Under the pieces are notes generated by a model. It was given only the letters and a program-made list of their open reading frames with translations. It was not told the DNA's origin and made no database searches. A DNA stretch of 64,000 nt from Deltaproteobacteria bacterium (lineage in GTDB: Bacteria; Myxococcota_A; Polyangia; DRWM01; JAAZOP01): positions 35,009 through 99,008 of the forward strand of contig JACRCX010000117.1 in assembly GCA_016218815.1 (NCBI GenBank), given 5' to 3'. Numbering within the stretch: position 1 is the stretch's first letter; the number at the start of each line of letters is the position of its first letter. The position numbers and the translations under genes were made by a program. Positions 17,990 through 47,185 of this stretch are shown piece after piece.

Positions 17990-20900
17990 ATGAACCACCT
18001 GCTCCAGCCGGTTGCGCTCCTGACGGTGCTCGGTGGCCTGCTCGTGACGCCGCTCGGATGCGGCGACGACAGCGGCGGCGGGGGTGATGCCGACGTCGCC
18101 GGCGACGCGACGGGCGACGGAGACGGCGACGGCGGAGGGGAGGGGGGCGAGTGCCTGGCGCCCGCGGACTGCGACGACGACAACGCGTGCACGGTCGATC
18201 GCTGCGTCGGCGGCTCGTGCGCCCACGACATCGCGCTGGACGGAACGCCGTGCGGCAGCGATCCGTGCACCGGCGGCGAGGTCTGCAACGCGGGCGCCTG
18301 CGTGCCCGGCGTGCCCGTGCTGGACGCCGACGAGGACGGACACCTGACCCGCGTCTGCGGCGGCGACGATTGCGACGACTCCAACGCGGACGTGCACCCC
18401 GGCATCTTCGAGGGCGGGGGCAACTGCGCCGACGGGCTGGACAACGATTGCGACGGCGTCGCCGATGCGCTCGATGCCGCCTGCTCCGGCCGCGTCTGCG
18501 GCGGCGACGCCTGGTGCTGGGAGAACCCCCTGCCGTCGGGCCTCGCCCTGGCCGCCGTCTGGCCGGTCTCCGCGACCGAGGTCTGGGGCGGAGGCACGGG
18601 CGTCCTGCGCTGGGCCGGCGGGGACATGACGTGGCAGGCACTCTCGGCGGGCGCGTGGACCGCGCAGCTTACGCACATGTGGGGCAGCGCGTCCGACGAC
18701 GTCTGGGCCGTCGGCAACGGCGTCTGGCACTTCGACGGCTCGACCTGGACCCAGGACACGACCCTGGCCTTCTACGGCATCGGCGACGTCTACGGCACCT
18801 CGCGCACCGACGTCTGGGTCGCCGGCTCCGGCGTCATCAACCACTGGAACGGCACCGGCTGGCGCCCGACCCTGACCGGCTCCACCGACACCCTGAGCGC
18901 CGTCTGGGCCGCCTCGCCGACCGACGCCTGGGCCGTCGGCTACAACGGCGTCTCCATGCACTGGGACGGCTCGGGCTGGAACCGGGTCGAGACCGGCACC
19001 ACGTCGAACCTCATCGCCGTGTGGGGCGCCGCGCCCGACGACGTCTGGGCGTCCGCGTACGGCGCCGGCGAGTTCCTGCACTGGAACGGCACGAGCTGGT
19101 CCACCGTCGCGACGGGCTTCACGGTCGTGCCCTACGGGATCGCCGGGACCTCGCCCACCGACGTGTGGGCCGTGGCGGACGCCGGCACGATCCTCCACTG
19201 GGATGGTACGGAGTGGGTCGCCGTCGCGAGCGGCGTGCGGCAGTCGCTTCGCGCGATCCGCGCCAACGGCGGTCAGGTCGTGATCGCGGGAGACGCGGGC
19301 CTCCTCCTGCGCCGCACGGCCTCGGGCTGGGAGCGGCTGGCACCCACCGGCCCCACGCCCACGACGTTCTCCGACATCTGGGCCACCGGCGCCGGCGCAT
19401 CCCTGGACGCCTGGGCCGTGGGCTCCGAGGGCACGATCGCCCGTCGGCTCTCCGACGGTAGCTGGGAGGCGGCGACCAGCCCGGTGACGCAGACCCTCAC
19501 CGCGGTCGCCGGCGCCTCGCCGACCGACGTCTGGGCCGTGGGCCTGGCCGGCTCGGCCGCCCACTGGGACGGGACCTCGTGGACCACCCAGACCCTGCCC
19601 GGCGGCGGCACGGCGAACGACGTCTGCTCCAACGGCCCCGGCGAGACGTGGGCCGTTGGCGCCTCGATCTTCCATCACGACGGGACCGCGTGGCGCACCG
19701 AGCCGTATCCGCTCACGGCGGCCTGGACCACGCGCGTGTTCTGCACGGGCGGCGACGAGGCGTGGCTGTCGACGACCGACGTCCGCGGCGACGTCCAGGT
19801 CTTCCTGCACTACGACGGCACGTCGTGGGTCGCGACGGGCCCCGAGGCCCTCATGCCCAACCAACCCTCCGACGGCTGGGGCTCGTCGGACGACGACGTC
19901 TGGGCCGTCGCCTACGGCACGGGCACGTCCACCGTCGTGCACTTCAACGGCGTCGGCTGGACCGCCATGGACACCGACCCCGACGTCGAGCTGCACGGCG
20001 TCGGCGGCACCGGCCCCGACGATGTCTGGCTCGTGGGCGCCGCCGGCGACGTCCTGCACTGGGACGGGACGTCGTTCACGCGACGGGACGTCCCGACGAC
20101 CGACGACCTGATCCGGGTCCGCGCGCTGGCCGCGGGCGACGTCATCGCCGTCGGCAGCGGCGGCAGCCTGGAGCGCTGGAACGGCTCGGCCTGGTCCGAG
20201 CTCGTCGGGCCGATTGCCGACCGGCCGTTCCACGACGCCTACGTCGCCGCCGCCGACCAGGCGTGGGGCCTGAACGAGTACGAGGTCCAGGTGTGGGACG
20301 GGACGACGTGGACGCGCGACGCCGCCGCCAGCTCGTGCGGTCTGTCCCACCCGATGGCGATCGTCGGATTTGCGGCCGATGACCTGTGGGTCGCCGACGA
20401 CTACGGCGACCTCTGTCACTGGGACGGCACGGTCTGGACCAGTCACGAGGTGGCGGGCACCAGCGTGTGGAACCTCACCGACATCTGGGGCAGTGCGCCG
20501 AACGACATCTGGGCGCAGGACGACGACGGCGGGATGTACCACTGGAGCGGCTCGGCGTGGGTCGCCGCCGGCGACCTCGGCACCCACAACCCCGCCGTCC
20601 TGTTCGGCGGCGGTCCGCAGGTCTGGTCGTTCGTCTCCGACTTCTTCGAGGACACGATCCTCGCGCACGTCTGGGACGGCTCGTCGTGGGTCCGCTACAG
20701 CATGCTCGCCGCGCCCGTCGCGGTCGGCGGCGCCGGGCCCGACGATCTGGCCGCGCTGGATCGGACGGGCAATCTCTGGCGCTGGGAGGGCCTCGGCTGG
20801 GCGCCGTACGGCTCGCCGACCAGCGAGGACGATACCGTCAACGCCGCCTGGGTCTTCGGACCCGACGACGTCTGGGCCATCTCGCGCGGCGGCCCGACGC

Positions 20901-21031
20901 ACTGGGACGGCGCCGCGTGGACGCCCTCCACCCCGGGAATGCCCGTCTACTTCTCGGCGCTGGCAGGCGCCGCGGACGGCACCCTCTGGGGGCTCGGAGC
21001 CAACGGGGCCGTGCTTCGCCGCGGTCCGTGA
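17990..21031 (+). CDS. Lipoprotein with an N-terminal Cys-rich CxDxDNDCDG module and about 18 tandem Ycf48/BNR-like beta-propeller repeats
   Basis: Signal/lipobox LLTVLGGLLVTPLGCG, then Cys-rich modules. Repeats of about 40 aa of the form DVWAVGxxGxxxHWDGT(S/G)W occur about 18 times. This matches the photosystem II stability/assembly factor-like (Ycf48-like) repeat pattern. Confidence 0.75.
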   Translation: MNHLLQPVALLTVLGGLLVTPLGCGDDSGGGGDADVAGDATGDGDGDGGGEGGECLAPADCDDDNACTVDRCVGGSCAHDIALDGTPCGSDPCTGGEVCNAGACVPGVPVLDADEDGHLTRVCGGDDCDDSNADVHPGIFEGGGNCADGLDNDCDGVADALDAACSGRVCGGDAWCWENPLPSGLALAAVWPVSATEVWGGGTGVLRWAGGDMTWQALSAGAWTAQLTHMWGSASDDVWAVGNGVWHFDGSTWTQDTTLAFYGIGDVYGTSRTDVWVAGSGVINHWNGTGWRPTLTGSTDTLSAVWAASPTDAWAVGYNGVSMHWDGSGWNRVETGTTSNLIAVWGAAPDDVWASAYGAGEFLHWNGTSWSTVATGFTVVPYGIAGTSPTDVWAVADAGTILHWDGTEWVAVASGVRQSLRAIRANGGQVVIAGDAGLLLRRTASGWERLAPTGPTPTTFSDIWATGAGASLDAWAVGSEGTIARRLSDGSWEAATSPVTQTLTAVAGASPTDVWAVGLAGSAAHWDGTSWTTQTLPGGGTANDVCSNGPGETWAVGASIFHHDGTAWRTEPYPLTAAWTTRVFCTGGDEAWLSTTDVRGDVQVFLHYDGTSWVATGPEALMPNQPSDGWGSSDDDVWAVAYGTGTSTVVHFNGVGWTAMDTDPDVELHGVGGTGPDDVWLVGAAGDVLHWDGTSFTRRDVPTTDDLIRVRALAAGDVIAVGSGGSLERWNGSAWSELVGPIADRPFHDAYVAAADQAWGLNEYEVQVWDGTTWTRDAAASSCGLSHPMAIVGFAADDLWVADDYGDLCHWDGTVWTSHEVAGTSVWNLTDIWGSAPNDIWAQDDDGGMYHWSGSAWVAAGDLGTHNPAVLFGGGPQVWSFVSDFFEDTILAHVWDGSSWVRYSMLAAPVAVGGAGPDDLAALDRTGNLWRWEGLGWAPYGSPTSEDDTVNAAWVFGPDDVWAISRGGPTHWDGAAWTPSTPGMPVYFSALAGAADGTLWGLGANGAVLRRGP

Positions 21032-21148: not shown

Positions 21149-22660
21149 GTGAGGGTGAAGAGAATGAGCGGTGACCGTCAGCCCACCTGCGCGTGGGTAT
21201 GGGGCACCGCCATCCTGCTGGCGGCCGGTGCGTGCTCGGACGACCCGGGAGAGCCGGCGGATGCGGCGGACGAACGCTACGATGGGATCCTCGAGGACGG
21301 CTCCGACGACGGGGACGAACCGCTTGACGACGGCACCGGCGAGGGAGAAGACGTCGGCTTCGAGGAGGGGGGCGGGGACGACGGCGGCCCGCCGGAAGAC
21401 ATTCGCACGCTGCTCGGGCGCGTCCCCGGCCTCGACGTCATCGATGCGGGCGGCGCGGGAAGCGTGCGCTTCTTCGATCTGAGATATGACCAGCCGGTCG
21501 ATCACGCGGAACCGGGGCGTGCGACCTTCGGACAGGCGATGACGTTGACCTTCGTGTCGACGGAGGCGTCGACGGTCCTCATGACCGAGGGCTACGCGAA
21601 CATGTGGGGGTTCGAGCGGGCCGAGCTGGCGTTGCTGCTCGACGCCAACCAGCTCGTCGTCGAGCACCGCTTCTTCGGCGCCTCGCGACCGGAGCCGCCG
21701 GACTGGACGAAGCTCGACATCGAGCAGGCGGCCGGCGATCACCACCGCATCGTCGAGGCGCTGCGGCCGATCCTGACGGGGCCATGGGTCTCCACCGGCT
21801 ACAGCAAGGGCGGCATGACCGCGGTCTACCACCGGCGGTTCCATCCGGACGACGTCGTCGGAACGGTGGCCTACGTGGCGCCGATCTCCTTCGGGGCCCC
21901 CGACGCCCGGTACCTCGACTTTGTCGATGCCGCGGGCGAGCCGGATTGCCGCGCGCGCCTCGCCGCCGTCCAGCGCGAGGCGCTCGTGCGCGGCGACGCC
22001 CTGCGCGCGCGGCTGGACCCCTGGAGCTTCGCGCGCCTGGGGGGCGTCGAGCGTGCGTTCGAGTCGGTGGTGCTGGAAGTTCCATTCACGTTCTGGCAGT
22101 ACGCCGGCTACACGTACTGCGGGACGGTGCCCGTCGTCCCCGGCGCGAGCGACGACGCGCTCTTCTCGTTCATCGACCGCATCGTCGGCTTCGATTCCGC
22201 GGGCGACGCCGAGATGGACTGGTTCGCGCCGTACTACTACCAGGCGTGGGAGCAGCTCGGTTTCCCCGACGTGGACCACACGTCTCTGGCCGACCTGCTG
22301 CGCACCGGCGCCCCGTCGCTCGAGGAAGGCGTCCTGCCCGCCGGGGCGCCCGTGCCGGCCTACGACCCCGCCGCCATGATCGGCGTCGCGCGGTGGGTCG
22401 CCGAGGACGGGGCGCGGCTGATTTTCGTCTACGGCCAGTGGGATCCGTGGACCGCCGGCGCATTCGACGTCGGCGCCGCTGTCGACTCCTACCGCTTCGT
22501 CGCCGCCGGCGGCACGCACTCCTCGCAGCTCGCCGACCTCGCCGCCGCCGATCAGGCCGTCGCGCACGACGCCCTGGAGCGCTGGACCGGCGTCCACGTG
22601 CGCTCGCTGCCCAAATCGGCCGTCCCGCCTCCGCGCCTGCCCCGCCACCCGGTTTTTTGA
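21149..22660 (+). CDS. Secreted alpha/beta-hydrolase-fold serine peptidase-like lipoprotein (S28/S37-like)
   Basis: Lipobox AILLAAGACSDD, an acidic linker, and a nucleophile elbow GYSKGG (GxSxG). Overall similarity to the PS-10/S37-type and S28-type secreted peptidases is recalled from memory, not searched. Confidence 0.55.
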   Translation: MRVKRMSGDRQPTCAWVWGTAILLAAGACSDDPGEPADAADERYDGILEDGSDDGDEPLDDGTGEGEDVGFEEGGGDDGGPPEDIRTLLGRVPGLDVIDAGGAGSVRFFDLRYDQPVDHAEPGRATFGQAMTLTFVSTEASTVLMTEGYANMWGFERAELALLLDANQLVVEHRFFGASRPEPPDWTKLDIEQAAGDHHRIVEALRPILTGPWVSTGYSKGGMTAVYHRRFHPDDVVGTVAYVAPISFGAPDARYLDFVDAAGEPDCRARLAAVQREALVRGDALRARLDPWSFARLGGVERAFESVVLEVPFTFWQYAGYTYCGTVPVVPGASDDALFSFIDRIVGFDSAGDAEMDWFAPYYYQAWEQLGFPDVDHTSLADLLRTGAPSLEEGVLPAGAPVPAYDPAAMIGVARWVAEDGARLIFVYGQWDPWTAGAFDVGAAVDSYRFVAAGGTHSSQLADLAAADQAVAHDALERWTGVHVRSLPKSAVPPPRLPRHPVF

Positions 22661-34648: not shown

Positions 34649-34673
34649 CACGGCAGCGTTCTCGCGGCGTTCC

Positions 34674-34702
34674 TTGACCGCTCCCGGTCTGTGGCCTACC
34701 CT
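34674..34702 (+). promoter_or_regulatory. Sigma70-like promoter (-35 TTGACC, 17-bp spacer, -10 TACCCT) upstream of the cysteine-rich lipoprotein gene
   Basis: TTGACC at 34674-34679 and TACCCT at 34697-34702. The identical hexamers and the GTGGCCTACCCTGAA block recur upstream of the paralog at 37186..37214. Confidence 0.5.
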
Positions 34703-34748
34703 GAATTCGGCGCTTGCCGGGGGCCGTTGCGGTCTGGAGGAACGGATC

Positions 34749-37148
34749 ATGACGAAGATGTGCGTGCGAATCGGGTCGCTCCTTGGCCTGTTCCTCGCGG
34801 CACTGTCCTGCGCCAGCGGCGGCTCCGGCACGCCCGATTACGGCTTCGAATCGGCCGACGGCGACGACGGCGGCGGAGGAACGGATGCCGACGAGGGCGA
34901 CGGCGGGGACGCCGACGAGGACGCCGGCGAAGGCGGCGACGCGGATGCGGACGACGACGCCGGCGCGGATGCCGACGGCGACGCGGACGCCGACGGCGGC
35001 GAGCCGTGCACGTCGGCGACGGAGTGCGACGACGGGATCGACTGCACGCTCGACACCTGCGACGACCTCGCGCACCTCTGCGTCCACACCACCGACGACC
35101 TGGGATGCGACGACGGCAACCCGTGCACCACGGGAGAGTATTGCGATCCGGCGAGCGGGTGCGCGGCGGGCGAGCCGATCGACTGCGGCGACGGCATCGA
35201 CTGCACGCGGGACGAGTGCCAGCCGCTGACCGGCGAGTGCGTGAACACGCCGGCCCACGACCGGTGCACGCCGCCTGAGATGTGCCGCCCGGAAGACGGA
35301 GGCTGCGCCGTGCCGCCGCCGTGCGAGTCGACCTCCGATTGCGACGACGGCAACCCGTGCAACGGTGCCGAGCTCTGTGACCCCGAATTCGGGTGTCAGG
35401 CGGGCACGCCCGTGGATTGCGACGACGGTGTGCATTGCACGGCCGATCTCTGCAGTCCTTTGACGTCCGAGTGCACCCATGAGCCCGAGGACTGGCGCTG
35501 CGAGGACGGCAATGCGTGCAACGGGCACGAGGCATGCGATGCGGCTACCGGCTGCTCATCGGGCACTCCGGTCAACTGCTCCGACGGCATTCCGTGCACG
35601 GAGGATTCCTGCGCCATCGCGACGGGCGCCTGCTCGCACGTTGCCAACGATTCTCGCTGCGACGACAGCGCGTTCTGCAACGGATTCGAGCGCTGCGATT
35701 CGGCCCTGGGCTGCACCGGCGGGGCGGTGCCCGCGTGCTCCGACGGCATCGCTTGCACGGTGGACGCGTGCGACGCCGGGACGGACGCGTGCACACACAG
35801 CCCGAACAACGCGTTGTGCGGGGACGGCCTGTTCTGCAACGGCTCCGAGATCTGCTCGGGCGGCGTCGGCTGCGGCCCGGGCACGCCGCCCGTCTGTGCG
35901 GACGCCCTGGCGTGCACCACCGACCGCTGCGATCCCGCTGCCGCGGGCGGCGCGGGCGCGTGCGTCGGCGACTCGCCCGACCGCGACGGCGACACCTACG
36001 GCGATGCCGCGTGTACCGGCACCGACTGCAACGACGGGTCGGCCGGCATCCACCCCGGGGCGACCGAGTCGTGCAACGGCATCGACGACGACTGCGACGG
36101 CACCACCGACGAGACCTTCACCTGCCCGGCCGGCTCCACGCGGAGCTGCTCGCTCGGAAGCTGCACCGGCTCGCAGACCTGCAGCTCGGGCTGCACCTGG
36201 GGAAGCTGCGTCGTCTCGGGCGCCGAGATCTGCAACGGGCTCGACGACAATTGCAACGGAGCCTCGGACGAGGGCTTCACCTGCCGGCTTGGCGCCGTCC
36301 AGGCCTGTAGCGTCGGCTCGTGTCCCGGCTTCCAGACCTGCGCGGCGGGCTGCACGTGGGGCTCGTGCACGGCGTCGGCGAGCGAGGTGTGCAACGGCGT
36401 CGACGACGATTGCGACGGCATGACCGACGAGGGCTTCGGCTGCGTCCTGGGACGGACCCAGTCCTGCACGGTCGGCTCGTGCGGCGGCTCGCAGACCTGC
36501 CAGGCGGGCTGCTTCTGGGGTTCCTGCACCGTCGGAACGCCCGAGTCGTGCAACGGCGTCGACGACAACTGCAACGGGGCGACCGACGAGACCTTCACCT
36601 GCCGACTCGGGAGCACGGTCGGGTGCACGAACACGTGCGGCGTCGGCGGGTCGCAAACCTGCACCGGGCCGTCGTGCTCCTGGGGCTCCTGCTGCTCCGC
36701 GTCGGAAGTGTGCGGCAACTCGTGCGACGACAACTGCAGCGGCGGCATCGACGAGGGATGCTGCGTCGGCGGAACGGCGAACTTCACCTTCCCCAACAGT
36801 TCGGATTCGGTGTACATGCCCGACTACCCCTGGATGTGGCGAAACGGGGATTACTTCCAGGGGACGCGCGTGACTTCCGTGCCATGTGCCACGTCCATCA
36901 CGCTCACTCTTTATGCATATAGCAACAGTCTCGCTTGCGACATGCTCAGCGGGAGGTTCCTCCTCAACGGCACCCCGATCGGTACCTTCGACCTGACGCC
37001 GGGGTACGGGGGGATTTCCGGCACGCTGTCCTTCGCGCCCATCTACGGTCCGACCTACACCCTACGCATGGAGGTGACCCGGACCGTTGCGACGGGGTGT
37101 GGCTCGGTCTGGTGGGAGGAGAACTACTCGCCCTGGACGATCCACTGA
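34749..37148 (+). CDS. Large cysteine-rich secreted lipoprotein (Myxococcus-type CxDGxxC repeats + CNGxDDDCDG putative metal-binding motifs + unique C-terminal domain)
   Basis: Lipobox MTKMCVRIGSLLGLFLAALSCASGG and an acidic Asp/Gly/Ala linker. Then about 12 CxxDxDC(T/N)xDxC modules, followed by 5 modules of CNGxDD(D/N)C(D/N)GxxDE...SC..GSC.G.Q.C...C.WG.C. The C-terminal approximately 130 aa are non-repetitive. Confidence 0.75.
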   Translation: MTKMCVRIGSLLGLFLAALSCASGGSGTPDYGFESADGDDGGGGTDADEGDGGDADEDAGEGGDADADDDAGADADGDADADGGEPCTSATECDDGIDCTLDTCDDLAHLCVHTTDDLGCDDGNPCTTGEYCDPASGCAAGEPIDCGDGIDCTRDECQPLTGECVNTPAHDRCTPPEMCRPEDGGCAVPPPCESTSDCDDGNPCNGAELCDPEFGCQAGTPVDCDDGVHCTADLCSPLTSECTHEPEDWRCEDGNACNGHEACDAATGCSSGTPVNCSDGIPCTEDSCAIATGACSHVANDSRCDDSAFCNGFERCDSALGCTGGAVPACSDGIACTVDACDAGTDACTHSPNNALCGDGLFCNGSEICSGGVGCGPGTPPVCADALACTTDRCDPAAAGGAGACVGDSPDRDGDTYGDAACTGTDCNDGSAGIHPGATESCNGIDDDCDGTTDETFTCPAGSTRSCSLGSCTGSQTCSSGCTWGSCVVSGAEICNGLDDNCNGASDEGFTCRLGAVQACSVGSCPGFQTCAAGCTWGSCTASASEVCNGVDDDCDGMTDEGFGCVLGRTQSCTVGSCGGSQTCQAGCFWGSCTVGTPESCNGVDDNCNGATDETFTCRLGSTVGCTNTCGVGGSQTCTGPSCSWGSCCSASEVCGNSCDDNCSGGIDEGCCVGGTANFTFPNSSDSVYMPDYPWMWRNGDYFQGTRVTSVPCATSITLTLYAYSNSLACDMLSGRFLLNGTPIGTFDLTPGYGGISGTLSFAPIYGPTYTLRMEVTRTVATGCGSVWWEENYSPWTIH

Positions 37149-37185
37149 GCCCGGTCGCACCCCCCCGCTCGCCCTGCCCCCCCGC

Positions 37186-37214
37186 CTTGACCGTTCGAAT
37201 CGCGTGGCCTACCC
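37186..37214 (+). promoter_or_regulatory. Sigma70-like promoter, duplicated copy (-35 TTGACC, 17-bp spacer, -10 TACCCT)
   Basis: TTGACC at 37186-37191 and TACCCT at 37209-37214. The flanking block GTGGCCTACCCTGAAC is identical to the one at 34691. Confidence 0.5.
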
Positions 37215-37254
37215 TGAACCTCGCGCTCGCGGAGAACGCAGGGAGGTCGCGAAC

Positions 37255-39888
37255 ATGGCAAAGGCGCACCGAAGCTTCGGTCTGCTCGTCGCCGTCCTCT
37301 GGTCCCTGGGCGGGTGCGCCACGGGCAGCTCCGGCATGCCCGATTACGGCTCCGAATCGACCCACGGCGACGACGGCGGCGGAGGAACCGACGCCGACGA
37401 GGGCGGCGCCGAGGACGCCGGCGAGGACGCCGGCGAGGTCGACGACGAGGGCGACTCGGCCGCCGACGCCGAGGCGGACGGCGACACGCCGTGTACGACG
37501 GCCGTCGAGTGCGACGACGGGATCGACTGCACCTTCGACTCCTGCGACAACCTGCGTCACGTCTGCGTCCACACCCCCGAGGACGCCGCCTGCGACGACG
37601 GCAGCCCGTGCACCACGGGCGAGCACTGCGACCCCGCCCTCGGCTGCGACCCCGGCACGACCATCGATTGCGGGGACGGCATCGCCTGCACCCGCGACGA
37701 GTGCCTGTCGCTGACCGGCGAGTGCACCAGCACGCCCGACGACACGCTGTGCGCGGCGACCGAGCGCTGCCGCCCTGCCCTCGGCGGCTGTGTCGTGCCC
37801 CCGCCCTGCGGCTCCGACGCGGAGTGCGACGACGGCAACCGCTGCAACGGCGTCGAGACCTGCGGCGGCGACCTCGGCTGCGAGGACGGGACGCCCGTCG
37901 ATTGCCGCGACGCCGTCGACTGCACCGACGACGTTTGCGAGCCCGCGAGCGGCGCCTGTTCCCACCCGCCCGACGACGCGCGGTGCGACGACGGCAACGC
38001 GTGCAACGGCGCCGAGACCTGCGATGCCGTCGCCGGCTGCCGCTCCGGCACGCCCCTCGACTGCTCCGACGGCGTGGACTGCACCGAGGACTCCTGCAGC
38101 GCCCTGACCGGTGCCTGCTCGCACGCCGCCAACGACTCCCGCTGCGACGACCGGGTCTACTGCAACGGCCCCGAGCGCTGCGACCCGGTCTCCGGCTGTT
38201 CCGGCGGCACGGCACCCTCGTGCAGCGACGGCATCGCCTGCACCTCGGACTCCTGCGACGGCACGACCGACAGTTGCACGCACACGCCGAACAACGCGCT
38301 CTGCTCGGACGGCCGCTTCTGCAACGGCGTCGAGCTCTGCTCCGGCGGCGTCGGCTGCGGCCCCGGCACTCCCGCGGTCTGCTCGGACGGCCTGGCGTGC
38401 ACCACCGATCGTTGCGATCCCGCGGCGGCCGGCGGCGCCGGCGCCTGCGTCGGCGAATCGCCCGACCGCGACGGCGATACCTACGGCGACGCCGCCTGCA
38501 CCGGCACCGACTGCAACGACGGGGCGGCCGGCGTCCACCCCGGCGCCGCCGAGCTGTGCAATGGCGGGGACGACGATTGCGACGGTGCGACCGACGAGGG
38601 CTACGTGTGTCCGGCCGGCACCTCGCGGAGCTGCACGGTGGGCGGCTGCACCGGCTCGCAGGCGTGCAGCGCGAGCTGCACGTGGGGAAGCTGCGTCGTG
38701 TCGGGCACCGAGGTGTGCAACGGCCTGGACGACGACTGCGACGGGCTCTCCGACGAGGTCTTCGCCTGCCGCTTCGGCGCCGTCCAGGCGTGCAGCGTCG
38801 GGTCGTGCCCGGGCACGCAGAGCTGCGTCGCCGGCTGCACCTGGGGCGCTTGCACCGCCTCCGCCTCCGAGGCGTGCAACGGGCTGGACGACAACTGCAA
38901 CGGCGTCACGGACGAGGGCTACTCCTGCATCATGGGCCGGGCGCAGTCCTGCACGATCGGGGCCTGCTCCGGGAGCCAGACGTGCCAGCCGGGCTGCTAC
39001 TGGGGCGCCTGCACCGCCGGCTCGCCGGAGTCGTGCAACGGCCTGGACGACGACTGCAACGGGGCGACCGACGAGATCTTCCCCTGCCGCCTGGGCACCA
39101 CGATCGGCTGCACCAACGCCTGCGGCGTCGCCGGCTCGCAGTCCTGTGCCTCGCCCTCGTGCACCTGGGGCTCCTGCTGCGCGGCTGCCGAGGTCTGCGG
39201 CAACGGGTGCGACGACAACTGCGCCGGCGGGGTCGATGAGGGATGCGTGTCCCGGCGCATCCTCTTTCTGCTCGATCTCTGCCCTGGCTCCTCCGGATAC
39301 GGGATCGACCACGTCACCCCGGCGCTGACCAACCTCGGGTACTACGGGTCCACCACGTTCGTGTACAACGACGCGTCGTTGTCCGCGCAGCTCTCCTCCG
39401 GCACCTGGGACCTGGTCATCGTCGACGAGTACTACTACGACCTCACTCCGACGACGATGGACCAACTCAACGCCCACGTCCTGGCCGGGCGCGCCCTCAT
39501 CTTCTCGTACTGGGACCTGTTCCTCTACTCGGGCCACGCCCTCCTATCGACCGCGGGCGTCGCCCTCTCGCTCTCCTACTCCTCCCCGCCGCCGATCTAC
39601 CGCTGGATCACCTCGCCCCTGTTCACGACCCCCAACGCCGTTCCGGACATCTCCGGCTACACCGACACCTGCAACACCGACGGCCAGTACCTGATCGTCA
39701 GCTCGGCGACCGCCCACGCCGGCTACGCGCCCTTCCCGTTCCCCAGCCAGGCGGCGCTCACGGTCAATTCCAGCTCCCGCATGATCCTCAACGGCTTCAT
39801 GCCGCAGATCGTGAGCCAGAACGCCGACGGCGACGGCAAGCCGGACATGGTCGAGCTGTACGAGAACGAGATCGACTTCCTGCTGTAG
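37255..39888 (+). CDS. Large cysteine-rich secreted lipoprotein, tandem paralog of 34749..37148 with a different C-terminal domain
   Basis: GGGAGG RBS and ATG 37255. Lipobox MAKAHRSFGLLVAVLWSLGGCATG. Same module order as the upstream gene; many modules are near-identical in sequence. The C-terminal about 230 aa (ILFLLDLCPGSSGYGIDHV...) are unrelated to the upstream paralog's tail. Confidence 0.75.
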   Translation: MAKAHRSFGLLVAVLWSLGGCATGSSGMPDYGSESTHGDDGGGGTDADEGGAEDAGEDAGEVDDEGDSAADAEADGDTPCTTAVECDDGIDCTFDSCDNLRHVCVHTPEDAACDDGSPCTTGEHCDPALGCDPGTTIDCGDGIACTRDECLSLTGECTSTPDDTLCAATERCRPALGGCVVPPPCGSDAECDDGNRCNGVETCGGDLGCEDGTPVDCRDAVDCTDDVCEPASGACSHPPDDARCDDGNACNGAETCDAVAGCRSGTPLDCSDGVDCTEDSCSALTGACSHAANDSRCDDRVYCNGPERCDPVSGCSGGTAPSCSDGIACTSDSCDGTTDSCTHTPNNALCSDGRFCNGVELCSGGVGCGPGTPAVCSDGLACTTDRCDPAAAGGAGACVGESPDRDGDTYGDAACTGTDCNDGAAGVHPGAAELCNGGDDDCDGATDEGYVCPAGTSRSCTVGGCTGSQACSASCTWGSCVVSGTEVCNGLDDDCDGLSDEVFACRFGAVQACSVGSCPGTQSCVAGCTWGACTASASEACNGLDDNCNGVTDEGYSCIMGRAQSCTIGACSGSQTCQPGCYWGACTAGSPESCNGLDDDCNGATDEIFPCRLGTTIGCTNACGVAGSQSCASPSCTWGSCCAAAEVCGNGCDDNCAGGVDEGCVSRRILFLLDLCPGSSGYGIDHVTPALTNLGYYGSTTFVYNDASLSAQLSSGTWDLVIVDEYYYDLTPTTMDQLNAHVLAGRALIFSYWDLFLYSGHALLSTAGVALSLSYSSPPPIYRWITSPLFTTPNAVPDISGYTDTCNTDGQYLIVSSATAHAGYAPFPFPSQAALTVNSSSRMILNGFMPQIVSQNADGDGKPDMVELYENEIDFLL

Positions 39889-39893
39889 GTCGA

Positions 39894-41510
39894 TCAGGTT
39901 CCCATCACGAACTCCAGGTACGCCTCCACCGACAGCTCCTCGCCCGTCGCCTCGCGCACCCGCACCGTCCACTCCCGCGTCTCGCCGTCCGACCACAGCG
40001 CCTCGCGCAGGAACGCGCCGACGGCCGGGTCGTCCAGCCACCCCTCGCCGAATCGCTCCCGGACCGCGCGCAGGACCTGCGCCGCGATCAGATCCGCCAG
40101 CACGTAGTTCTGCATGTAGCACGGGTACGCCGCGAGAAATGCGGTCGCCGCCCACGTCGCCGGCGCGTCCAACGGGAGCGCAAGACCCAGATACCGTTCC
40201 GCGACCTCGTGCTCGACGGCGTCGACGTCGGTCCCCTCCTCGTACAGCGCCCGCTCCAACGCCACGTCGGCCAGGCGCGAACGCACCGAAACCAGCGAGC
40301 GGGCGCGCCACAGCGCCAGGAAGCGCTCGATCTCCTCCGTCGACAGGTCGGTCCGCCGCTCGAGGAACGCGCGGTCGCCGACGAGCAGCCCGAGCAGCTC
40401 GGCCATCCCCTCCGCGTACGCCGGCACGCTCGCGCCGGCCAGCCATTCGTAGCCCTTCAGGATTGGCGAGGCGACGGTCGTCGAGACGCCCTGGAGCGCG
40501 TGGCCCGTCTCGTGGAACAGGGTCCCCCACACGCGCCAGCCGGGCAGGGGGTTGATCATCATGCGCACGTCGTCGGGGATCGAGACGGCCAGAGTCTGGC
40601 CGCCATAGCCGAAATCACCCTCCCGGCGGCGGATGGGCAGCGCCTCCAGCTCGACGCCGATCCCCCGCAGCGTCTCCGACAGCGCCGGCAGCGCCTGCTC
40701 CTTCGGCCAACGCTCGTCCGGGATCGTGCCGAGCTTCTCGATCAGCCACGGCACGTCCCAGGGGGCGAGCGTCGCGGCGGGGTCGCCGCCCGCCTCGCGC
40801 CCGCGCCGCAGCACCTCCGCCCACGCCTCCGCCGTCCGCTCGTCCAGCTCGCGCAGCAGCGGATCGAGCAGCTCCGGCGGCAGCCCCTCGGCCCCCAGCA
40901 TCGCGTCGGCGTAGGTGCCGGCCCCCCCCAGCCCGGCCGCGGCTTCCTTCCGCAGCGAGACCAGCCGCAGCGTGTCCTCCAGAACCTCGCCGTGCAGGTC
41001 GCCGCGAAGCTCCACGACGAGCCGCCGCTCGGCCGGGTCGTCCGAGCGCGACAAACGCGAGAGGTCGGAGCGCGACCAGGTCCGGTCGCCCCGCACGAAC
41101 GCGTGCTCGTTGACCCGGCGCTCCAGGTCGGTGCGCAGCCGGACGGCCTCCGGGTCCGCGTCGAGCCGCCAGGCGCCCTCGCAGCGACGCCAGACCTCGG
41201 CCCGCCGGGCGATGATCGGATCGCCGCCGGACCCGCGGCAGGCGTCGAGCACCGGGCGCGCCCGGTCGAAGAGGCGGCCGAACTCGGCGCGCACCGCCGC
41301 CGGATCCTCGGCCGTCTCGCCTTCTTCCTCCCCGACGTACGACAGCCAGGTCGCGGCGCCCAGTCGCCGCGCGAGCGCTTCGTAGTCGGCTTCGAGCGCG
41401 TCGAGTGCGCCGCACGAGTCGTTCACGGCCGGAACTCCTTCCGCGGGGCGCGTCCCTTCCGGACCGCCGCAGGCGACGAGCAGCAGAAGACAGGAACCAC
41501 CGATGGACAC
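39894..41510 (-). CDS. Zinc metallopeptidase lipoprotein, M3/M2-like (HETGH motif)
   Basis: GTG at 41510 gives MSIGGSCLLLLVACGG (lipobox). The HExxH site is LFHETGHALQG, with a downstream EGMAELLG region. The maximal ORF to 42956 is antisense of the M20 gene. Confidence 0.65.
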   Translation of the reverse strand: MSIGGSCLLLLVACGGPEGTRPAEGVPAVNDSCGALDALEADYEALARRLGAATWLSYVGEEEGETAEDPAAVRAEFGRLFDRARPVLDACRGSGGDPIIARRAEVWRRCEGAWRLDADPEAVRLRTDLERRVNEHAFVRGDRTWSRSDLSRLSRSDDPAERRLVVELRGDLHGEVLEDTLRLVSLRKEAAAGLGGAGTYADAMLGAEGLPPELLDPLLRELDERTAEAWAEVLRRGREAGGDPAATLAPWDVPWLIEKLGTIPDERWPKEQALPALSETLRGIGVELEALPIRRREGDFGYGGQTLAVSIPDDVRMMINPLPGWRVWGTLFHETGHALQGVSTTVASPILKGYEWLAGASVPAYAEGMAELLGLLVGDRAFLERRTDLSTEEIERFLALWRARSLVSVRSRLADVALERALYEEGTDVDAVEHEVAERYLGLALPLDAPATWAATAFLAAYPCYMQNYVLADLIAAQVLRAVRERFGEGWLDDPAVGAFLREALWSDGETREWTVRVREATGEELSVEAYLEFVMGT

Positions 41511-41513
41511 GGT

Positions 41514-41586
41514 GCGGAACCGAACCGCGCCCTTCAGGGCGCGGCTGTGTCGGGACAAGCCGCGGGCTGAAGCCCGCGGTTCGGTT
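41514..41586 (+). repeat. REP/MITE-like double-hairpin element, copy 2 (between the M20 peptidase stop and the M3-like peptidase start)
   Basis: Same consensus as copy 1. The outer arms GGAACCGAACCGCG...CGCGGTTCGGTTGC form terminal inverted repeats. Confidence 0.8.
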
Positions 41587-41611
41587 GCGGGCAGGAGCAC
41601 CGCGCCGGTAC

Positions 41612-44238: not shown

Positions 44239-44242
44239 TCCG

Positions 44243-44352
44243 GCCGACCGCTCGCCCGCTCGCCCGCTCGCCTCCCCCCGGCCGCTCGACCGCTCGCCTC
44301 CCCCCCCGGCCGCTCGGCCGCTCGCCTCCCCCCGGCCGCTCGCTTCCTCGCT
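44243..44352. repeat. Intergenic minisatellite, about 29-bp unit x3.5 (GGCCGCTCGRCCGCTCGCCTCCCCCC)
   Basis: Direct tandem repeats are visible between the acyltransferase stop (44238) and the Cys-rich lipoprotein stop (44351). Confidence 0.75.
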
Positions 44353-47185
44353 AGCGCGTGGAGCGCGAGGTCGTGTCGCTGATCACGGTGTTGAGCGGGG
44401 TGACCGAGCAGGTGTCGGGGCCGCTCCAGTAGACGTCGACGACGCGCCACATGTCGCGCGCGCCTCCGCCGCCGTTGGCGCAGACGGTGCGGGTGTAGGT
44501 CCCGACCGGCGTGTAGCTGATGTCGCCGCAGTAGATGCGCACCGTGGCCGTGCGACAGCCGTCCGAACGGTAGTGGTGGACGCCGACCCGGTAGGTGTTG
44601 CCGACGACCGGCGAATCGATGTTGATGTTCTCCGGCCCGTCCCCGGGGATGTCGTCGTAGTCCAGCCGTGGGTCGTCGAGCGTGCCGCCGCCGTCCCAGG
44701 ACGGCCGGGTGTTGGCGTAGTAGCAGTCGTACGGCGAGTTGAACCACGCGGGCGAGCTGGGGTGCAGCAGGTGCAAGTCGACGTCGCCCGGGATGTCCCA
44801 GACCAGCTCGACCCGCAGCCCTAGACCCGTGACGTGCACCTCCACCGTGCAGCTCGCCGTCCGCCCGCCGCTGTCGGTCACCGTGTAGCGCAGCATGTAC
44901 ACGCCGGCGATGTCGGCGCGGAAGGTCGTGGAGGCGCAGATCGTGCAGCCGAAGCTGTAGATCATGCCGGCGGGGCCGGACGTGACCTCCCAGCGGCGGG
45001 AGACGATGTCGCCGTCGGGGTCGCCGTCCGAGGCGGTCAGCGTGACCGTCGCGCGGGCGACCATCGTGACCGGGGACGCCGGACAGGTCGTCCACGGCGG
45101 CCCGAAACAGCCCTCGTCGACCGAGCCGTCGCAGTCCTCGTCGCGCCCCGTGCTGCAGGCCTCGGTGCCGGGCAGCCGCTCGCCCGAACACGCGCCCCAG
45201 GTGGAGCCGGAGCCGGGGATTTCCACGCAGACCTGGCTGCCGTCGCGGCACTCGCCGACCAGGCGCGTGGCCGGCGGGCCGGTGTAGCACGAGCGCGTCG
45301 CGCCGGGCGTGCAGGTGCATCCTTCGTCGGTGCCGTAGTCGCAGTCGTTGTCCAGCCCGTCCGCGCAGACCTCGATCCCGGGGAGCACCTCGCCGCCGCA
45401 GGCCGTCCAGGTGCTGCCGCCGCCCGGGATCGTCACGCAGCTCTGCGAGCCCTGCCGGCAGACGCCGACGCCGGCCGTGCCGGCCGGCCCGGAGTAGCAG
45501 TTGCGGGTGGTGCCCGGCGTGCAGACGCACAGCTCATCGCGCGTGCCGTCGCAGTCGTTGTCGACGGAGTCGCCGCAGACCTCCGTCGCCGGAACGACCT
45601 CGCCCACGCACGCGCCCCAGGACGCCGTCCCGCCGCTGCCGCTCACGCAGGTCTGGGTCCCGTTGCGGCAGGGACCGACGCCCGCGGTGCCGGCCGGTCC
45701 GGAGTAGCACGAGCGCGTCGCGCCGGGCGTGCACGTGCACCCCTCGTCGATGGCGTGGTCGCAGTCGTTGTCGATCGCGTCGCAGATCTCCGTGTCGGGT
45801 CCGTGCCAGCCCGCGCAGGCGGTCCACGTGGAGCTGGTCGAGCCGCTGTCCCACAGGCACTCGCGGCGCCCGTCGACGCAGACGCCGACCCCTCGCGTGC
45901 CGGCCGGCCCCGGGTAGCAGGCTTCCTCCGCCAGCGGCGGACATTCGCAGCCCGCGTCGGGCTCGCCGTCGCAGTCGTTGTCCAGACCGTCGCACACGTC
46001 GGGCGCGGGAAGGACGCTGCCGGTGCAGGGGCCCCATTCCGTGCCGCCGCCCGAGGTCGCGACGCAGGTCTGACCTCCCGCCAGACACGTGCCCTCGCCC
46101 TCGGTCCCCGCCGGGCCCGTGTAGCAGCTCCGGACGTCCCCCAGCACGCAGCCGCAGCCCTCGTCCGTCAACGCGTCGCAGTCGTCGTCGATGCCGTTGT
46201 CGCACAGCTCGAATCCCGGACCGGTCCAGCCCAGGCACAGGCCCCAGGAAGAGAGCGCGCCGCCGGGATCGACCACGCAGCTCTGGTCGCCGTCGGAACA
46301 GAGGCCCCGGCCGCGCGTGTCCGCAGGGCCCTCGTAGCAGACCCGCGTCGTACCGGGCGGGCAGACGCAACCCGCATCGACGGCGCCGTCACAGTCGTTG
46401 TCGACCCCGTCGCACAGGTCGATGCCCGGCAACGTCTGCCCGCGGCACTCGCCCCATTCCGTGCCGCCATCGGCCGTCTCCTGGCAGTACTGGTTGCCCC
46501 CCGTGCAGGTGCCGACGCCGTCGGTGCCGGCCGGACCCGTGTAGCACGGACGCCGGTCGCCGGTGTCGCAGACGCATCCTTCGTCCGCCGAGCCGTCGCA
46601 GTCGTTGTCGGTCCCGTCCCCGCAGGCCTCGCTGCCGGGCAGCACCGAGCCGGTGCAGTCGCCCCACGAGCCGAACTCGCCCACGGCGATGCAGGTCTGC
46701 GAGCCCATGTCGCAGATGCCGACTCCCGCCGCCGGCTCCGGCCCGACGTAGCACGGCTGCACCTCGCCGATCGCGCACGCGCAGCCCTCGTCGGCCGTCG
46801 TGTCCCCGTCGTTGTCGATGCCGTCGCCGCAGCGCTCCTCGCCCGGCGTCCACTCCGCCGGCGCATCGTCCGCGTCCGCGCCGGTGTCCGCGTCGCCGTC
46901 GCCCCCCTCGGGGTCCGCGTCGGCGTCGCCGTCCGCCGCGGCGTCCGGATCCCCATCGATCGTGCCGTCGGGAATCGGGGCGTCGGCGTCGCCGCCCGGG
47001 ACGTCCCATCCATCGCCCATCCCGTCGAAGAACCGGCACGTGCCGTCGACGCAGATGCCGCCGGGGCAGTCCGCGTTGCCCGAGCAGCGGGTGTCGTCGC
47101 CGCCCGAGGAGTCCGCCCCGGAGCCGCAGCCGGCCAGGGCCAGCGCGATACCCGCGAGCACGATACAAAACACCCTTTGCCGCAT
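44351..47185 (-). CDS. Large cysteine-rich lipoprotein with about 10 CxDGxDNDCDG putative metal-binding repeats and a C-terminal PKD/Ig-like region
   Basis: ATG 47185 with lipobox MRQRVFCIVLAGIALALAGCGSG. The repeats have the form CDxxDNDCDGxxDEGCxCxPGxTRxCYxGPAGTxGVGxCxxGxQxC. The C-terminal approximately 250 aa are beta-rich and non-repetitive. Confidence 0.75.
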   Translation of the reverse strand: MRQRVFCIVLAGIALALAGCGSGADSSGGDDTRCSGNADCPGGICVDGTCRFFDGMGDGWDVPGGDADAPIPDGTIDGDPDAAADGDADADPEGGDGDADTGADADDAPAEWTPGEERCGDGIDNDGDTTADEGCACAIGEVQPCYVGPEPAAGVGICDMGSQTCIAVGEFGSWGDCTGSVLPGSEACGDGTDNDCDGSADEGCVCDTGDRRPCYTGPAGTDGVGTCTGGNQYCQETADGGTEWGECRGQTLPGIDLCDGVDNDCDGAVDAGCVCPPGTTRVCYEGPADTRGRGLCSDGDQSCVVDPGGALSSWGLCLGWTGPGFELCDNGIDDDCDALTDEGCGCVLGDVRSCYTGPAGTEGEGTCLAGGQTCVATSGGGTEWGPCTGSVLPAPDVCDGLDNDCDGEPDAGCECPPLAEEACYPGPAGTRGVGVCVDGRRECLWDSGSTSSTWTACAGWHGPDTEICDAIDNDCDHAIDEGCTCTPGATRSCYSGPAGTAGVGPCRNGTQTCVSGSGGTASWGACVGEVVPATEVCGDSVDNDCDGTRDELCVCTPGTTRNCYSGPAGTAGVGVCRQGSQSCVTIPGGGSTWTACGGEVLPGIEVCADGLDNDCDYGTDEGCTCTPGATRSCYTGPPATRLVGECRDGSQVCVEIPGSGSTWGACSGERLPGTEACSTGRDEDCDGSVDEGCFGPPWTTCPASPVTMVARATVTLTASDGDPDGDIVSRRWEVTSGPAGMIYSFGCTICASTTFRADIAGVYMLRYTVTDSGGRTASCTVEVHVTGLGLRVELVWDIPGDVDLHLLHPSSPAWFNSPYDCYYANTRPSWDGGGTLDDPRLDYDDIPGDGPENINIDSPVVGNTYRVGVHHYRSDGCRTATVRIYCGDISYTPVGTYTRTVCANGGGGARDMWRVVDVYWSGPDTCSVTPLNTVISDTTSRSTR

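What the first reader, a model, noticed from the sequence alone, without database searches (positions are those of the whole stretch)
34674..39888. Tandem duplication of a giant cysteine-rich lipoprotein gene, including its promoter and leader, with swapped C-terminal domains
Genes 34749..37148 and 37255..39888 share lipobox, acidic linker and an identical order of about 12 CxxDxDC modules plus 5 CNGxDDDCDG modules. Many modules are near-identical, yet the C-terminal domains are unrelated: a 130-aa beta-rich tail versus a 230-aa ILFLLDLCPGSSGYGIDHV... domain.

Both genes are preceded by the same -35 TTGACC / 17 bp / -10 TACCCT and the same GTGGCCTACCCTGAA block. The duplication therefore copied the regulatory region while the cargo domain diversified, which is consistent with a polymorphic surface or effector family.

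A third family member (44351..47185) lies 4.5 kb downstream on the other strand, with a copy of the REP-like element in its upstream region.
Basis: seen in the sequence. Interest (0 to 1): 0.6.

Follow-up and report, generated by a model that had tools for sequence, protein, structure and literature searches.

The report
Paired stalked lipoproteins with different heads
Two neighbouring genes in an uncultured myxobacterium-like genome encode the same long, cysteine-rich, lipid-anchored stalk with two unrelated end domains; this is a real but fairly ordinary case of gene duplication followed by domain swapping in a large, uncharacterised family of probable surface-binding proteins.

Summary
Genes A (34749..37148, 799 aa) and B (37255..39888, 877 aa) share a lipobox Cys21, an acidic linker and a 585-residue stalk with no indels and all 88 cysteines in register (72% aa, 77% nt). 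The stalk is 6 Dicty_CTDC double units plus 5 MopE motifs. Similarity stops right after the last DEGC.

Both genes carry TTGACC-17-TACCCT inside a shared GTGGCCTACCCTGAA block. The single A-type gene of two syntenic relatives (L170, L004) has the same blocks.

Those relatives have no B, so window 37151..39893 is lineage-specific. B branched from the A lineage at about the window/L170 split (dS 0.58 vs 0.49). Its stalk has diverged about twice as much at non-synonymous sites.

B's head has a GATase1-like fold without a conserved nucleophile. Its nearest relatives (58-64%) sit on stalks only 43-48% identical to B's. A's head is an orphan beta-sandwich with a CBM6/35/36-like or P-domain-like fold.

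Related stalks mostly carry lectin-like heads. No immunity gene and no toxin fold were found.

Best reading: paralogous outer-membrane stalk lipoproteins displaying different binding heads, not effectors. This is a new member of a known kind, and interest is modest.

The parts
34674..34705 (+). Promoter-like element of gene A. The -35 TTGACC is at 34674-34679, followed by a 17-nt spacer and the -10 TACCCT at 34697-34702. Both lie within the conserved block GTGGCCTACCCTGAA (34691-34705).
   Evidence: Searches show two copies only in the window, against a chance expectation of 0.03-0.05. The same blocks precede the orthologues in L004 and L170. The generic sigma-70 scan does not call it, because TACCCT matches only 3 of 6 positions of TATAAT.
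34736..34741 (+). Shine-Dalgarno sequence GGAGGA, 7 nt before the ATG of gene A.
   Evidence: Read from the sequence. A GAGG is conserved at this position in B, L004 and L170.
34749..37148 (+). Gene A, a 799-aa lipoprotein precursor (NCBI MBI5490069.1, 'putative metal-binding motif-containing protein').
34749..34811 (+). Gene A signal peptide with lipobox (..LAALS|C). The lipidated Cys21 codon is at 34809-34811, and residue +2 is Ala.
   Evidence: Read from the sequence. A Cys after the hydrophobic region is invariant in 10 family members. This is a pattern-level inference only.
34812..35006 (+). Gene A acidic linker, residues 22-86. It has 25 D+E, 19 G, 12 A and no K or R.
35007..35975 (+). 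Gene A stalk, part 1: 12 four-Cys modules forming 6 double units of 53 aa. CTxDxC (Dicty_CTDC) modules alternate with CNGxExC-type modules.
   Evidence: Pfam PF00526 scores 43.6 bits against a cut-off of 27, in 6 stretches. See also and the 159-nt periodicity.
35976..36761 (+). Gene A stalk, part 2: the highly conserved junction DPAAAGGAGAC..SPDRDGDTYGD followed by 5 MopE-type motifs in 53-aa, 8-Cys units.
   Evidence: Pfam PF11617 scores 107.7 bits in 5 stretches. The junction window is 97% aa identical between A and B while dS is 0.49.
36762..37145 (+). Gene A head, 128 aa: an orphan beta-sandwich.
37151..39893 (+). Segment present in the window but absent from the syntenic loci L170 and L004. 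It holds gene B with its own promoter, inserted between the stop of A (plus GC) and the stop of the convergent gene.
37187..37218 (+). Promoter-like element of gene B. The -35 TTGACC is at 37187-37192, followed by a 17-nt spacer and the -10 TACCCT at 37210-37215. The conserved block spans 37204-37218.
37255..39888 (+). Gene B, an 877-aa lipoprotein precursor (NCBI MBI5490070.1). Lipobox ..SLGG|C with the Cys21 codon at 37315-37317. Acidic linker 37318-37491. Dicty_CTDC part 37492-38460. MopE part 38461-39246.
39247..39885 (+). Gene B head, 213 aa: a GATase1-like alpha/beta domain without a conserved catalytic nucleophile.
44351..47185 (-). Gene C, a 944-aa lipoprotein with an acidic linker, about 8 MopE-type 70-aa units, a PKD domain and an unassigned tail. 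It is a distant superfamily member and is not part of the duplication.
   Evidence: It is conserved in position in L004 and L170.

Best explanation
A and B are paralogous lipoproteins built as anchor, tether, stalk and head.

Build and display (inferred unless marked):
- Each gene has its own sigma-70-type promoter (TTGACC-17-TACCCT) and Shine-Dalgarno site. This is inferred from phylogenetic footprinting.
- After Sec export the precursor is lipidated at Cys21. Residue +2 is Ala rather than Lys. By the Myxococcus sorting rule, recalled from memory, that would send it to the outer membrane.
- A 58-65-residue acidic, disordered tether follows.
- Next comes a 585-residue rod of 12 Dicty_CTDC-type four-Cys modules plus 5 MopE-motif units. 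It holds 88 cysteines, presumably about 44 disulfides, and its Asp-rich loops probably bind Ca2+.
- The rod holds a C-terminal head away from the membrane.

Heads (folds shown with moderate-confidence models, ligands unknown):
- A carries a small beta-sandwich with a CBM6/35/36-like or P-domain-like fold.
- B carries a GATase1-like domain that lacks a catalytic nucleophile.
- The heads most likely bind ligands such as glycans or surface proteins of matrix, prey or neighbouring cells. The pair would then give one cell two specificities on the same scaffold.

Evolution (shown by comparison):
- An A-type gene was copied together with its promoter into the 2-nt gap behind its own stop. This happened at about the time this lineage split from its nearest sampled relative.
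- The copy's stalk then diverged about twice as much at non-synonymous sites.
- Its head was replaced by one that otherwise sits on distantly related stalks, on stalkless lipoproteins or on IPTL-CTERM proteins.
- The break lies right after the last conserved MopE motif (..C.DDNC.GG.DEGC). That motif is the likely recombination site (inferred).
For: Architecture:
- Searches show collinear stalks with every cysteine in register.
- One search shows every stalk cysteine invariant in 10 family members.
- One search gives PF00526 at 43.6 bits and PF11617 at 107.7 bits.

Promoter:
- Searches show the motif is unique to the two genes in the window.
- Searches show only the -35 block, the -10 block and the Shine-Dalgarno site are conserved across A, B, L004 and L170.

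Lineage-specific copy:
- L170 (GCA_016218765.1) is collinear at 84-89% nt on both sides but lacks 37151-39893.
- L004 shows the same absence.

Timing and rates:
- The four genes form a clade, and A groups with L170, both at 100% bootstrap.
- dS is 0.58 for A-B, 0.49 for A-L170 and 0.65 for A-L004. dN is 0.19 for A-B against 0.095 for A-L170.
- Overall omega is 0.32-0.36, which indicates purifying selection.

Head mosaicism:
- B's head is 58-64% identical to the heads of P0027, P0056 and P0106. Their stalks are only 43-48% identical to B's stalk.
- The same head sits directly on a lipobox plus (DA)n linker in L001.
- It also occurs on a protein with an IPTL-CTERM tag: P0005 scores 23.3 bits against a cut-off of 20.5.

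Binding-type heads:
- Among 54 related stalk proteins, 22 carry PPC or galactose-binding-domain-like heads. Others carry legume-lectin, C-type-lectin or DUF5648 heads.
- In one locus a B-head protein lies between GH57 and alpha-amylase/CBM48 genes.
Against: - No experiment exists on any member of the family.
- Surface exposure, outer-membrane sorting, disulfide formation and Ca2+ binding are all inferred.
- The head models have only moderate confidence (pLDDT 68 and 74) and come from very shallow alignments of 3 and 6 sequences. Beta-sandwich and GATase1-like folds also occur in non-binding roles.
- The genomic context is not consistent between loci.
- The in-situ duplication model cannot be told apart from one clean loss of B in L170. 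The dS difference of 0.58 against 0.49 is about 1.3 of my own rough standard errors.
- The protein tree places B outside all A genes in 60% of bootstraps and inside in 40%.
- Patches where A and B are closer to each other than A is to its orthologues point to gene conversion, which blurs the dating.
Confidence: 0.6

Rival explanations
1. Polymorphic lipoprotein toxins or effectors of the SitA type. A conserved N-terminal delivery region would carry interchangeable C-terminal toxic cargo, delivered to neighbours by outer-membrane exchange.
For: The proteins have a lipobox, a disordered stretch right after it, a conserved N-terminal region and unrelated C-termini. SitA proteins are described in the same terms in PMC8546572. 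Heads have been exchanged between stalks.
Against: sitAI loci are always operons with an immunity gene (PMC8546572). Here there is no ORF between A and B, and B ends 5 nt from a convergent gene. Neither head has a nuclease or toxin fold, and neither hits a Pfam or NCBIfam toxin family. Heads on related stalks are lectin-type. The 585-aa disulfide rod is unlike the roughly 375-aa SitA escort domains.
Confidence: 0.05
2. Metal-handling proteins, for example copper or calcium capture at the cell surface. The 'putative metal-binding motif / MopE-related' annotation implies this.
For: Five PF11617 motifs per protein. A weak sequence match to MopE* (PDB 2vov), E=0.005. The linker and motifs are very rich in Asp.
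Against: The 2vov match covers only chain residues 5-45, which is the short N-terminal motif and not the rest of the 336-residue chain. From memory, MopE's copper ligands lie outside this motif. The variable folded heads, and the lectin-type heads on related stalks, are not explained by a metal-scavenging role. Ca2+ bound structurally in the stalk is compatible with the main explanation.
Confidence: 0.1
3. B did not arise by duplication in place. It would be a diverged homologue from another locus or another species, carrying the family promoter, that was inserted behind A. Later local gene conversion would have homogenised parts of A and B.
For: Two syntenic relatives have clean junctions without B. 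Protein bootstraps place B outside all three A orthologues 60% of the time. A and B share an 89% identical tract (86 of 97 nt) after the lipobox that the orthologues lack. Other A-B-closest patches alternate with A-orthologue-closest patches. A B-type gene in L005 has a different downstream neighbour.
Against: B carries the same promoter blocks as the A genes at this locus. dS for A-B (0.58) is lower than dS for A-L004 (0.65) and B-L004 (0.74), and close to A-L170 (0.49). That fits an origin within this lineage. No mobile-element gene, target-site duplication or tRNA flanks the segment. L005's stalk is only about 55% identical to B's, so it is not a donor-like sequence.
Confidence: 0.2

Closest known systems
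TraA of Myxococcus xanthus, the kin-recognition receptor for outer-membrane exchange
   Same: Both are cell-envelope proteins of a myxobacterium in which a variable, lectin-type recognition domain is proposed to be held out on a rigid stalk of tandem cysteine-rich repeats. The TraA authors note that its repeats resemble Pfam PF00526 (PMC3325183). PF00526 is the family that matches the N-terminal half of the A and B stalks.
   Different: The topology is reversed. TraA has an N-terminal PA14 head and a C-terminal MYXO-CTERM anchor. A and B have an N-terminal lipid anchor and a C-terminal head. No TIGR04201 repeat, PA14 domain or MYXO-CTERM tag was detected. A and B also have no traB-like partner gene next to them.
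SitA polymorphic lipoprotein toxins of Myxococcus
   Same: Both have a lipobox, a disordered region after it, a conserved N-terminal region that defines the family, and modular C-termini that differ between members (PMC8546572).
   Different: A and B have no immunity gene, no nuclease or toxin fold, and a disulfide-rich repeat stalk instead of an escort domain.
Same-family stalk lipoproteins with two PPC or galactose-binding-domain-like heads (P0010-P0016; Sandaracinus amylolyticus I5071_83940 has a related head)
   Same: P0010-P0016 have the identical architecture up to the last DEGC. They share the lipobox, the acidic linker, the 12 plus 5 modules and every cysteine, and are 58-64% identical.
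   Different: Their heads are two PPC/GBD domains (PF04151, PF23759). Profile comparison finds no relation between these heads and A's head (hhalign probability 0.3%). B's head has a different fold altogether.
MopE of Methylococcus capsulatus (PDB 2vov) and the PF11617 motif
   Same: The short C.DG.D.DCDG..D motif is shared.
   Different: Only the motif is shared. There is no similarity to the rest of MopE.
Dictyostelium CTDC-repeat extracellular proteins (PsiA, DicA1)
   Same: Both have tandem PF00526 repeats in secreted signalling or adhesion proteins combined with a lectin-type domain (PMC3325183).
   Different: The Dictyostelium proteins are eukaryotic, have no lipid anchor and no MopE units, and carry PA14 heads.

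Membership tests
PF11617 (Cu-binding_MopE / putative metal-binding motif) proteins | At least one motif match above the Pfam gathering score of 27 bits | tested here: met
   A scores 66.3 bits and B 52.6 bits on the whole proteins. The C-half of the A stalk alone scores 107.7 bits in 5 stretches.
MopE copper-binding protein proper | Homology to the copper-binding body of MopE* (PDB 2vov), beyond the N-terminal motif | tested here: not met
   The only PDB sequence hit is 2vov at E=0.005, limited to chain residues 5-45.
PF00526 Dicty_CTDC repeat proteins | Repeat matches above the gathering score of 27 bits | tested here: met
   The N-half of the A stalk scores 43.6 bits in 6 stretches. On the whole proteins the score is below the cut-off (20.2 and 16.1 bits).
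TraA-like receptors | TIGR04201 cysteine-rich repeats | tested here: not met
   NCBIfam, which includes TIGRFAM models such as TIGR04174 seen, gives no hit for A, B or their stalk halves, even at E up to 10.
TraA-like receptors | PA14 head and MYXO-CTERM sorting tag | tested here: not met
   There is no PA14 hit in Pfam. The proteins end in folded domains without a hydrophobic, Arg-rich tail. NCBIfam gives no hit.
SitA polymorphic lipoprotein toxins | Lipoprotein with a disordered region after the lipobox and a family-defining conserved N-terminal region | tested here: inconclusive
   The lipobox pattern, the acidic linker and a conserved stalk are present. The stalk was not compared with the six escort-domain families, because no models for them are in the libraries.
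SitA polymorphic lipoprotein toxins | C-terminal nuclease toxin domain | tested here: not met
   The predicted head folds are a CBM/P-domain-like beta-sandwich and a GATase1-like domain. There are no toxin family hits.
SitA polymorphic lipoprotein toxins | Cognate immunity gene in the same operon | tested here: not met
   The 106-nt A-B spacer has no ORF on the plus strand other than the two genes. B's stop lies 5 nt from a convergent gene.
Class I glutamine amidotransferases | GATase1 alpha/beta fold | tested here: met
Class I glutamine amidotransferases | Conserved Cys nucleophile after the central strand, with the His/Glu triad | tested here: not met
   In the 6-sequence alignment the residues after the strand ..LIFSYW.. 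vary (S/A/N, Y/F/S/V, W/G). The 14 invariant columns include no Cys or His. The two partly conserved Cys residues lie elsewhere and probably form a disulfide (inference).
Carbohydrate-binding modules of the galactose-binding-domain-like fold (CBM6/35/36) or the P-domain | Beta-jelly-roll fold and sequence membership in a CBM family | tested here: inconclusive
Bacterial lipoproteins (Lgt/LspA substrates) | Signal peptide ending in a lipobox with an invariant Cys | tested here: met
   B has LGG|C and A has ALS|C, which fits only the permissive pattern as I recall it. The Cys is invariant in 10 family members. No dedicated predictor or experiment was available.

The most novel reading that the evidence does not exclude
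The Dicty_CTDC+MopE stalk lipoproteins could be a recognition-receptor system of uncultured Myxococcota, analogous to TraA. Head exchange at the conserved last MopE motif would create new partner or prey specificities. Lineage-specific extra copies such as B, a chimera found once among about 15 billion proteins, would be the raw material of such diversification. Its GATase1-like head and the four-member orphan beta-sandwich would then be new ligand-recognition domain families.
Probability: 0.12. Interest if true: 0.6.

Novelty: new member of a known kind. Interest (0 to 1): 0.3.

Why it matters
Myxococcota genomes encode very many cysteine-rich repeat proteins annotated only as 'putative metal-binding motif-containing'. 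A profile that included this stalk matched more than 24,000 50%-identity clusters. This locus gives a clean, dated example of how such proteins diversify. The stalk and promoter are copied, the head is swapped at a fixed junction, and the copy then diverges faster at non-synonymous sites. The locus also points to two unmodelled head domains that could be expressed and tested for ligands. If the heads prove to be lectins or receptors, the family would be a candidate for adhesion or prey or kin recognition in uncultured myxobacteria. As it stands, this is ordinary gene-family evolution in an uncharacterised family.

Tried and rejected
- Exact-sequence look-ups of A and P0010 found no contig.
- The genome contigs and metagenome-contig scans returned only relatives at 45% identity or less, with one short fragment at 51%. 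They gave no syntenic loci. Synteny came instead from contigs of P0008 and of cluster member P0257.
- The single exhaustive HMM search was meant for A's head. All 768 columns of alignment A3 became profile positions, so the stalk swamped the result. It says nothing about how rare the head is.
- The afdb50 fold library was unavailable.
- Rfam found nothing meaningful in 34400-40100, only sub-threshold IRES_Bip noise inside the repeats.
- The generic sigma-70 scan calls no promoter here, because TACCCT is a weak -10. It also finds no terminator between A and B.
- A profile comparison of A's head with the PPC heads of relatives was negative, with probability 0.3%. I therefore dropped the idea that A's head is a diverged PPC domain.
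- I first took P0257 to be at least 90% identical to A because the two share a cluster. BLASTP gives 73% over the full length and 84% over the stalk. I re-dated the duplication with dS.
- I looked for a target-site duplication or microhomology at the edges of 37151-39893. The only candidate is a 5-nt GGTCG near both ends, and it does not fit a deletion product.
- The weak resemblance between the mnmA end and the sequence upstream of B's promoter is too slight to fix the left boundary of the duplication.
Full report
OBSERVATION

The window has about 71% G+C. Two same-strand ORFs lie behind mnmA. Gene A is 34749..37148 (799 aa) and gene B is 37255..39888 (877 aa). NCBI already models both with these lengths, as 'putative metal-binding motif-containing protein' of a Deltaproteobacteria MAG (MBI5490069.1 and MBI5490070.1).

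BLASTP aligns A and B at E=0. The shared region is 70% identical at the protein level and 77% at the DNA level. The stalk alone is 72% identical. All 88 stalk cysteines are offset by exactly 7 residues, so there is not a single indel in 585 residues. Similarity stops directly after the last ..DEGC, and the tails give no significant alignment.

TTGACC-N17-TACCCT and the 15-mer GTGGCCTACCCTGAA each occur exactly twice in 64 kb, at 34674-34705 and 37187-37218. The chance expectation is 0.03-0.05. The rest of the two spacers has diverged, apart from a GGAGG ribosome-binding site.

ANATOMY

Both proteins start with a signal peptide that ends in a lipobox cysteine (Cys21). An acidic linker of 58-65 residues follows, with 20-25 Asp+Glu and no Lys or Arg.

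Next come twelve four-cysteine modules of 26-27 residues. CTxDxC modules alternate with CNGxExC-type modules, giving six 53-aa double units. The DNA shows the matching 159-nt periodicity. Scanned alone, this half passes Pfam PF00526 (Dicty_CTDC) at 43.6 bits against a cut-off of 27, in six stretches.

A junction, DPAAAGGAGAC..SPDRDGDTYGD, is 97% conserved between A and B although dS there is 0.49. It is therefore under strong purifying selection. Five MopE-type motifs in 53-aa, eight-cysteine units complete the stalk (PF11617, 107.7 bits).

NCBIfam gives nothing for the stalk, so it is not made of the TraA-type TIGR04201 repeat. In ten family members every stalk cysteine is invariant.

THE TWO HEADS

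Neither tail hits Pfam, NCBIfam or PDB sequences.

A's 128-residue tail is known from only four sequences: A, P0006, P0008 and P0257.
- Its AlphaFold model is a beta-sandwich of moderate confidence (pLDDT 68).
- It shows no profile relation to the PPC heads of relatives.

B's 213-residue tail models better (pLDDT 74, pTM 0.80).
- The position of the catalytic nucleophile is not conserved, and none of the 14 invariant columns is Cys or His. I take it to be non-catalytic.
- The same domain occurs directly behind a lipobox and a (DA)n linker in a 369-aa protein of L001.
- It also occurs behind ordinary signal peptides on proteins that end in an IPTL-CTERM-type tag. P0005 is above the model cut-off and P0004 is below it.
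- It is therefore an extracytoplasmic module displayed away from an anchor.

FAMILY

The stalk query found 2,750 proteins at E below 1e-10, mostly from Myxococcota MAGs. A profile containing the stalk matched more than 24,000 50%-identity clusters.

The closest full-length relatives, P0010-P0016, are 58-64% identical in the stalk. They have the identical architecture but end in two PPC or galactose-binding-domain-like domains.

I clustered the tails of 54 related stalk proteins. The result was:
- 22 with PPC-type tails;
- 8 with a cysteine-rich tail;
- 4 with the B head;
- 3 with a weak SO2946-like match;
- 2 with the A head;
- singletons that include a legume lectin, a C-type lectin and DUF5648.

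Most identifiable heads are therefore lectin-like or CBM-like.

The head and stalk histories disagree. B's head is 58-64% identical to the heads of P0027, P0056 and P0106, whose stalks are only 43-48% identical to B's. B's stalk is 72% identical to A's. This is domain shuffling, with the break at the conserved last MopE motif.

COMPARATIVE LOCI AND HISTORY

Two syntenic contigs were recovered.
- L170 (GCA_016218765.1) is collinear with the window at 84-89% nt from upstream of mnmA to the Ser/Thr kinase. It has one A-type gene whose stop lies 2 nt from the convergent gene.
- L004 is more distant (75-85% nt) and shows the same arrangement with a 7-nt spacer.

Relative to both, the window carries an extra 37151..39893, which is B plus its promoter.

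Both relatives keep CTTGACCG..N..GT(G/A)GCCTACC(C/T)TGA and the ribosome-binding site upstream of their gene. In L004 the upstream neighbour is different. This four-way footprint is the best evidence that the blocks are functional, and that B was copied together with them.

In a stalk tree, A, B and the two orthologues form a clade, and A pairs with L170, both at 100% bootstrap. B falls outside all A genes in 60% of bootstraps and inside L004 in 40%. Pairwise divergence over 585 aligned stalk codons was:

| Pair | dS | dN |
|---|---|---|
| A - L170 | 0.49 | 0.095 |
| A - B | 0.58 | 0.19 |
| B - L170 | 0.57 | 0.20 |
| A - L004 | 0.65 | 0.18 |
| B - L004 | 0.74 | 0.21 |

B therefore branched at about the window/L170 split. 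The A-B pair has diverged about twice as much at non-synonymous sites as the A-L170 orthologue pair. Omega is 0.32-0.35 for pairs involving B, against 0.19 for A-L170.

Alternating patches complicate the dating. In some, A and B are closest to each other. One is an 86/97-nt tract right after the lipobox that the orthologues lack. In others, A is closest to its orthologue. This pattern indicates some gene conversion.

The simplest history is an in-situ duplication in this lineage followed by head replacement. A slightly older duplication with one clean loss in L170, or insertion of a diverged homologue, cannot be excluded.

B in this form, an A-clade stalk with this head, has no other member in its 90% cluster.

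FUNCTION

No immunity-like ORF exists between A and B or after B. The heads have no toxin fold.

SitA toxins, the known polymorphic lipoproteins of myxobacteria, always come with sitI and carry nuclease C-termini (PMC8546572). I therefore reject the effector reading.

The copper-protein annotation rests on a 40-residue motif match to MopE.

The closest functional analogue is TraA, where a cysteine-rich repeat stalk is proposed to present a lectin-type PA14 domain (PMC3325183). However, the orientation, repeat family, head and anchor all differ.

I conclude, by inference, that A and B are outer-membrane stalk lipoproteins that display different ligand-binding heads. One B-head relative lies among alpha-glucan-degrading genes. 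Other contexts differ, so the ligand is unknown.

VERDICT

It is wrong or unsupported about 'leader', 'near-identical', 'effector' and the third 'family member'.

This is a new member of a known kind: a modular, cysteine-rich surface protein family that diversifies by duplication and domain shuffling. It carries two unmodelled head domains. Interest is modest.

Noticed in passing
window 41518-41594, 47272-47349, 30877-30911: A REP-like element made of two GC-rich hairpins (CCGCGCCCTTCAGGGCGCGG and CCGCGGGCTGAAGCCCGCGG). Two full copies lie in opposite orientation, one of them upstream of gene C. A half copy lies at 30.9 kb. All are in intergenic positions.
   Followed up: partly
window 17990..21031 (+): A 1013-aa lipoprotein (LGC lipobox) with an acidic Gly/Asp linker, a few cysteine-rich modules and one MopE motif (18424-18471). 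About 15 'DVWAVG...HWDG..W' repeats follow, which looks like a beta-propeller. It is another acidic-linker lipoprotein of the same broad style.
   Followed up: no
window 4795-5069 and 21149..22660 (+): Further Asp/Ala/Gly-rich acidic linker stretches. The second lies behind a lipobox (AGAC) in a 503-aa protein. Acidic tethers after lipoboxes seem to be a habit of this genome.
   Followed up: no
window 54852-54959: A tandem array of 5-6 copies of a 17-nt unit (AGGAGTGGGTCGATCGG), 88-100% identical.
   Followed up: no
window 44240-44351: A C-rich run of short CCGCTCGC / CCCCCCGGCCGCTCG repeats, immediately 3' of the stop of gene C.
   Followed up: no
window 34809-34905 vs 37315-37411: The tract right after the lipobox Cys is 89% identical (86 of 97 nt) between A and B, with dS about 0.09. 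The stalk average is 77%. The orthologues in L004 and L170 have different sequence there, so this is probably a gene-conversion tract.
   Followed up: partly
L169 8001-10136 and neighbours: A stalk lipoprotein with the B-type head (P0056) lies between a GH57+Big_7 gene and alpha-amylase/CBM48 and esterase/CBM48 genes. This is the only hint of a glycan-related context for the GATase1-like head.
   Followed up: no
L001 4462..5571: A 369-aa lipoprotein consisting of a lipobox, a short Cys motif, a pure (Asp-Ala) linker of about 45 repeats, and the B-type head, with no stalk. The gene caller split it into two overlapping ORFs.
   Followed up: partly
window 39894..~41430 (-): The convergent neighbour of B is a roughly 510-aa lipoprotein with an HExxH motif (FHETGHAL) and no precomputed Pfam hit on record for its L004 and L170 orthologues. 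Its position is conserved in both.
   Followed up: no
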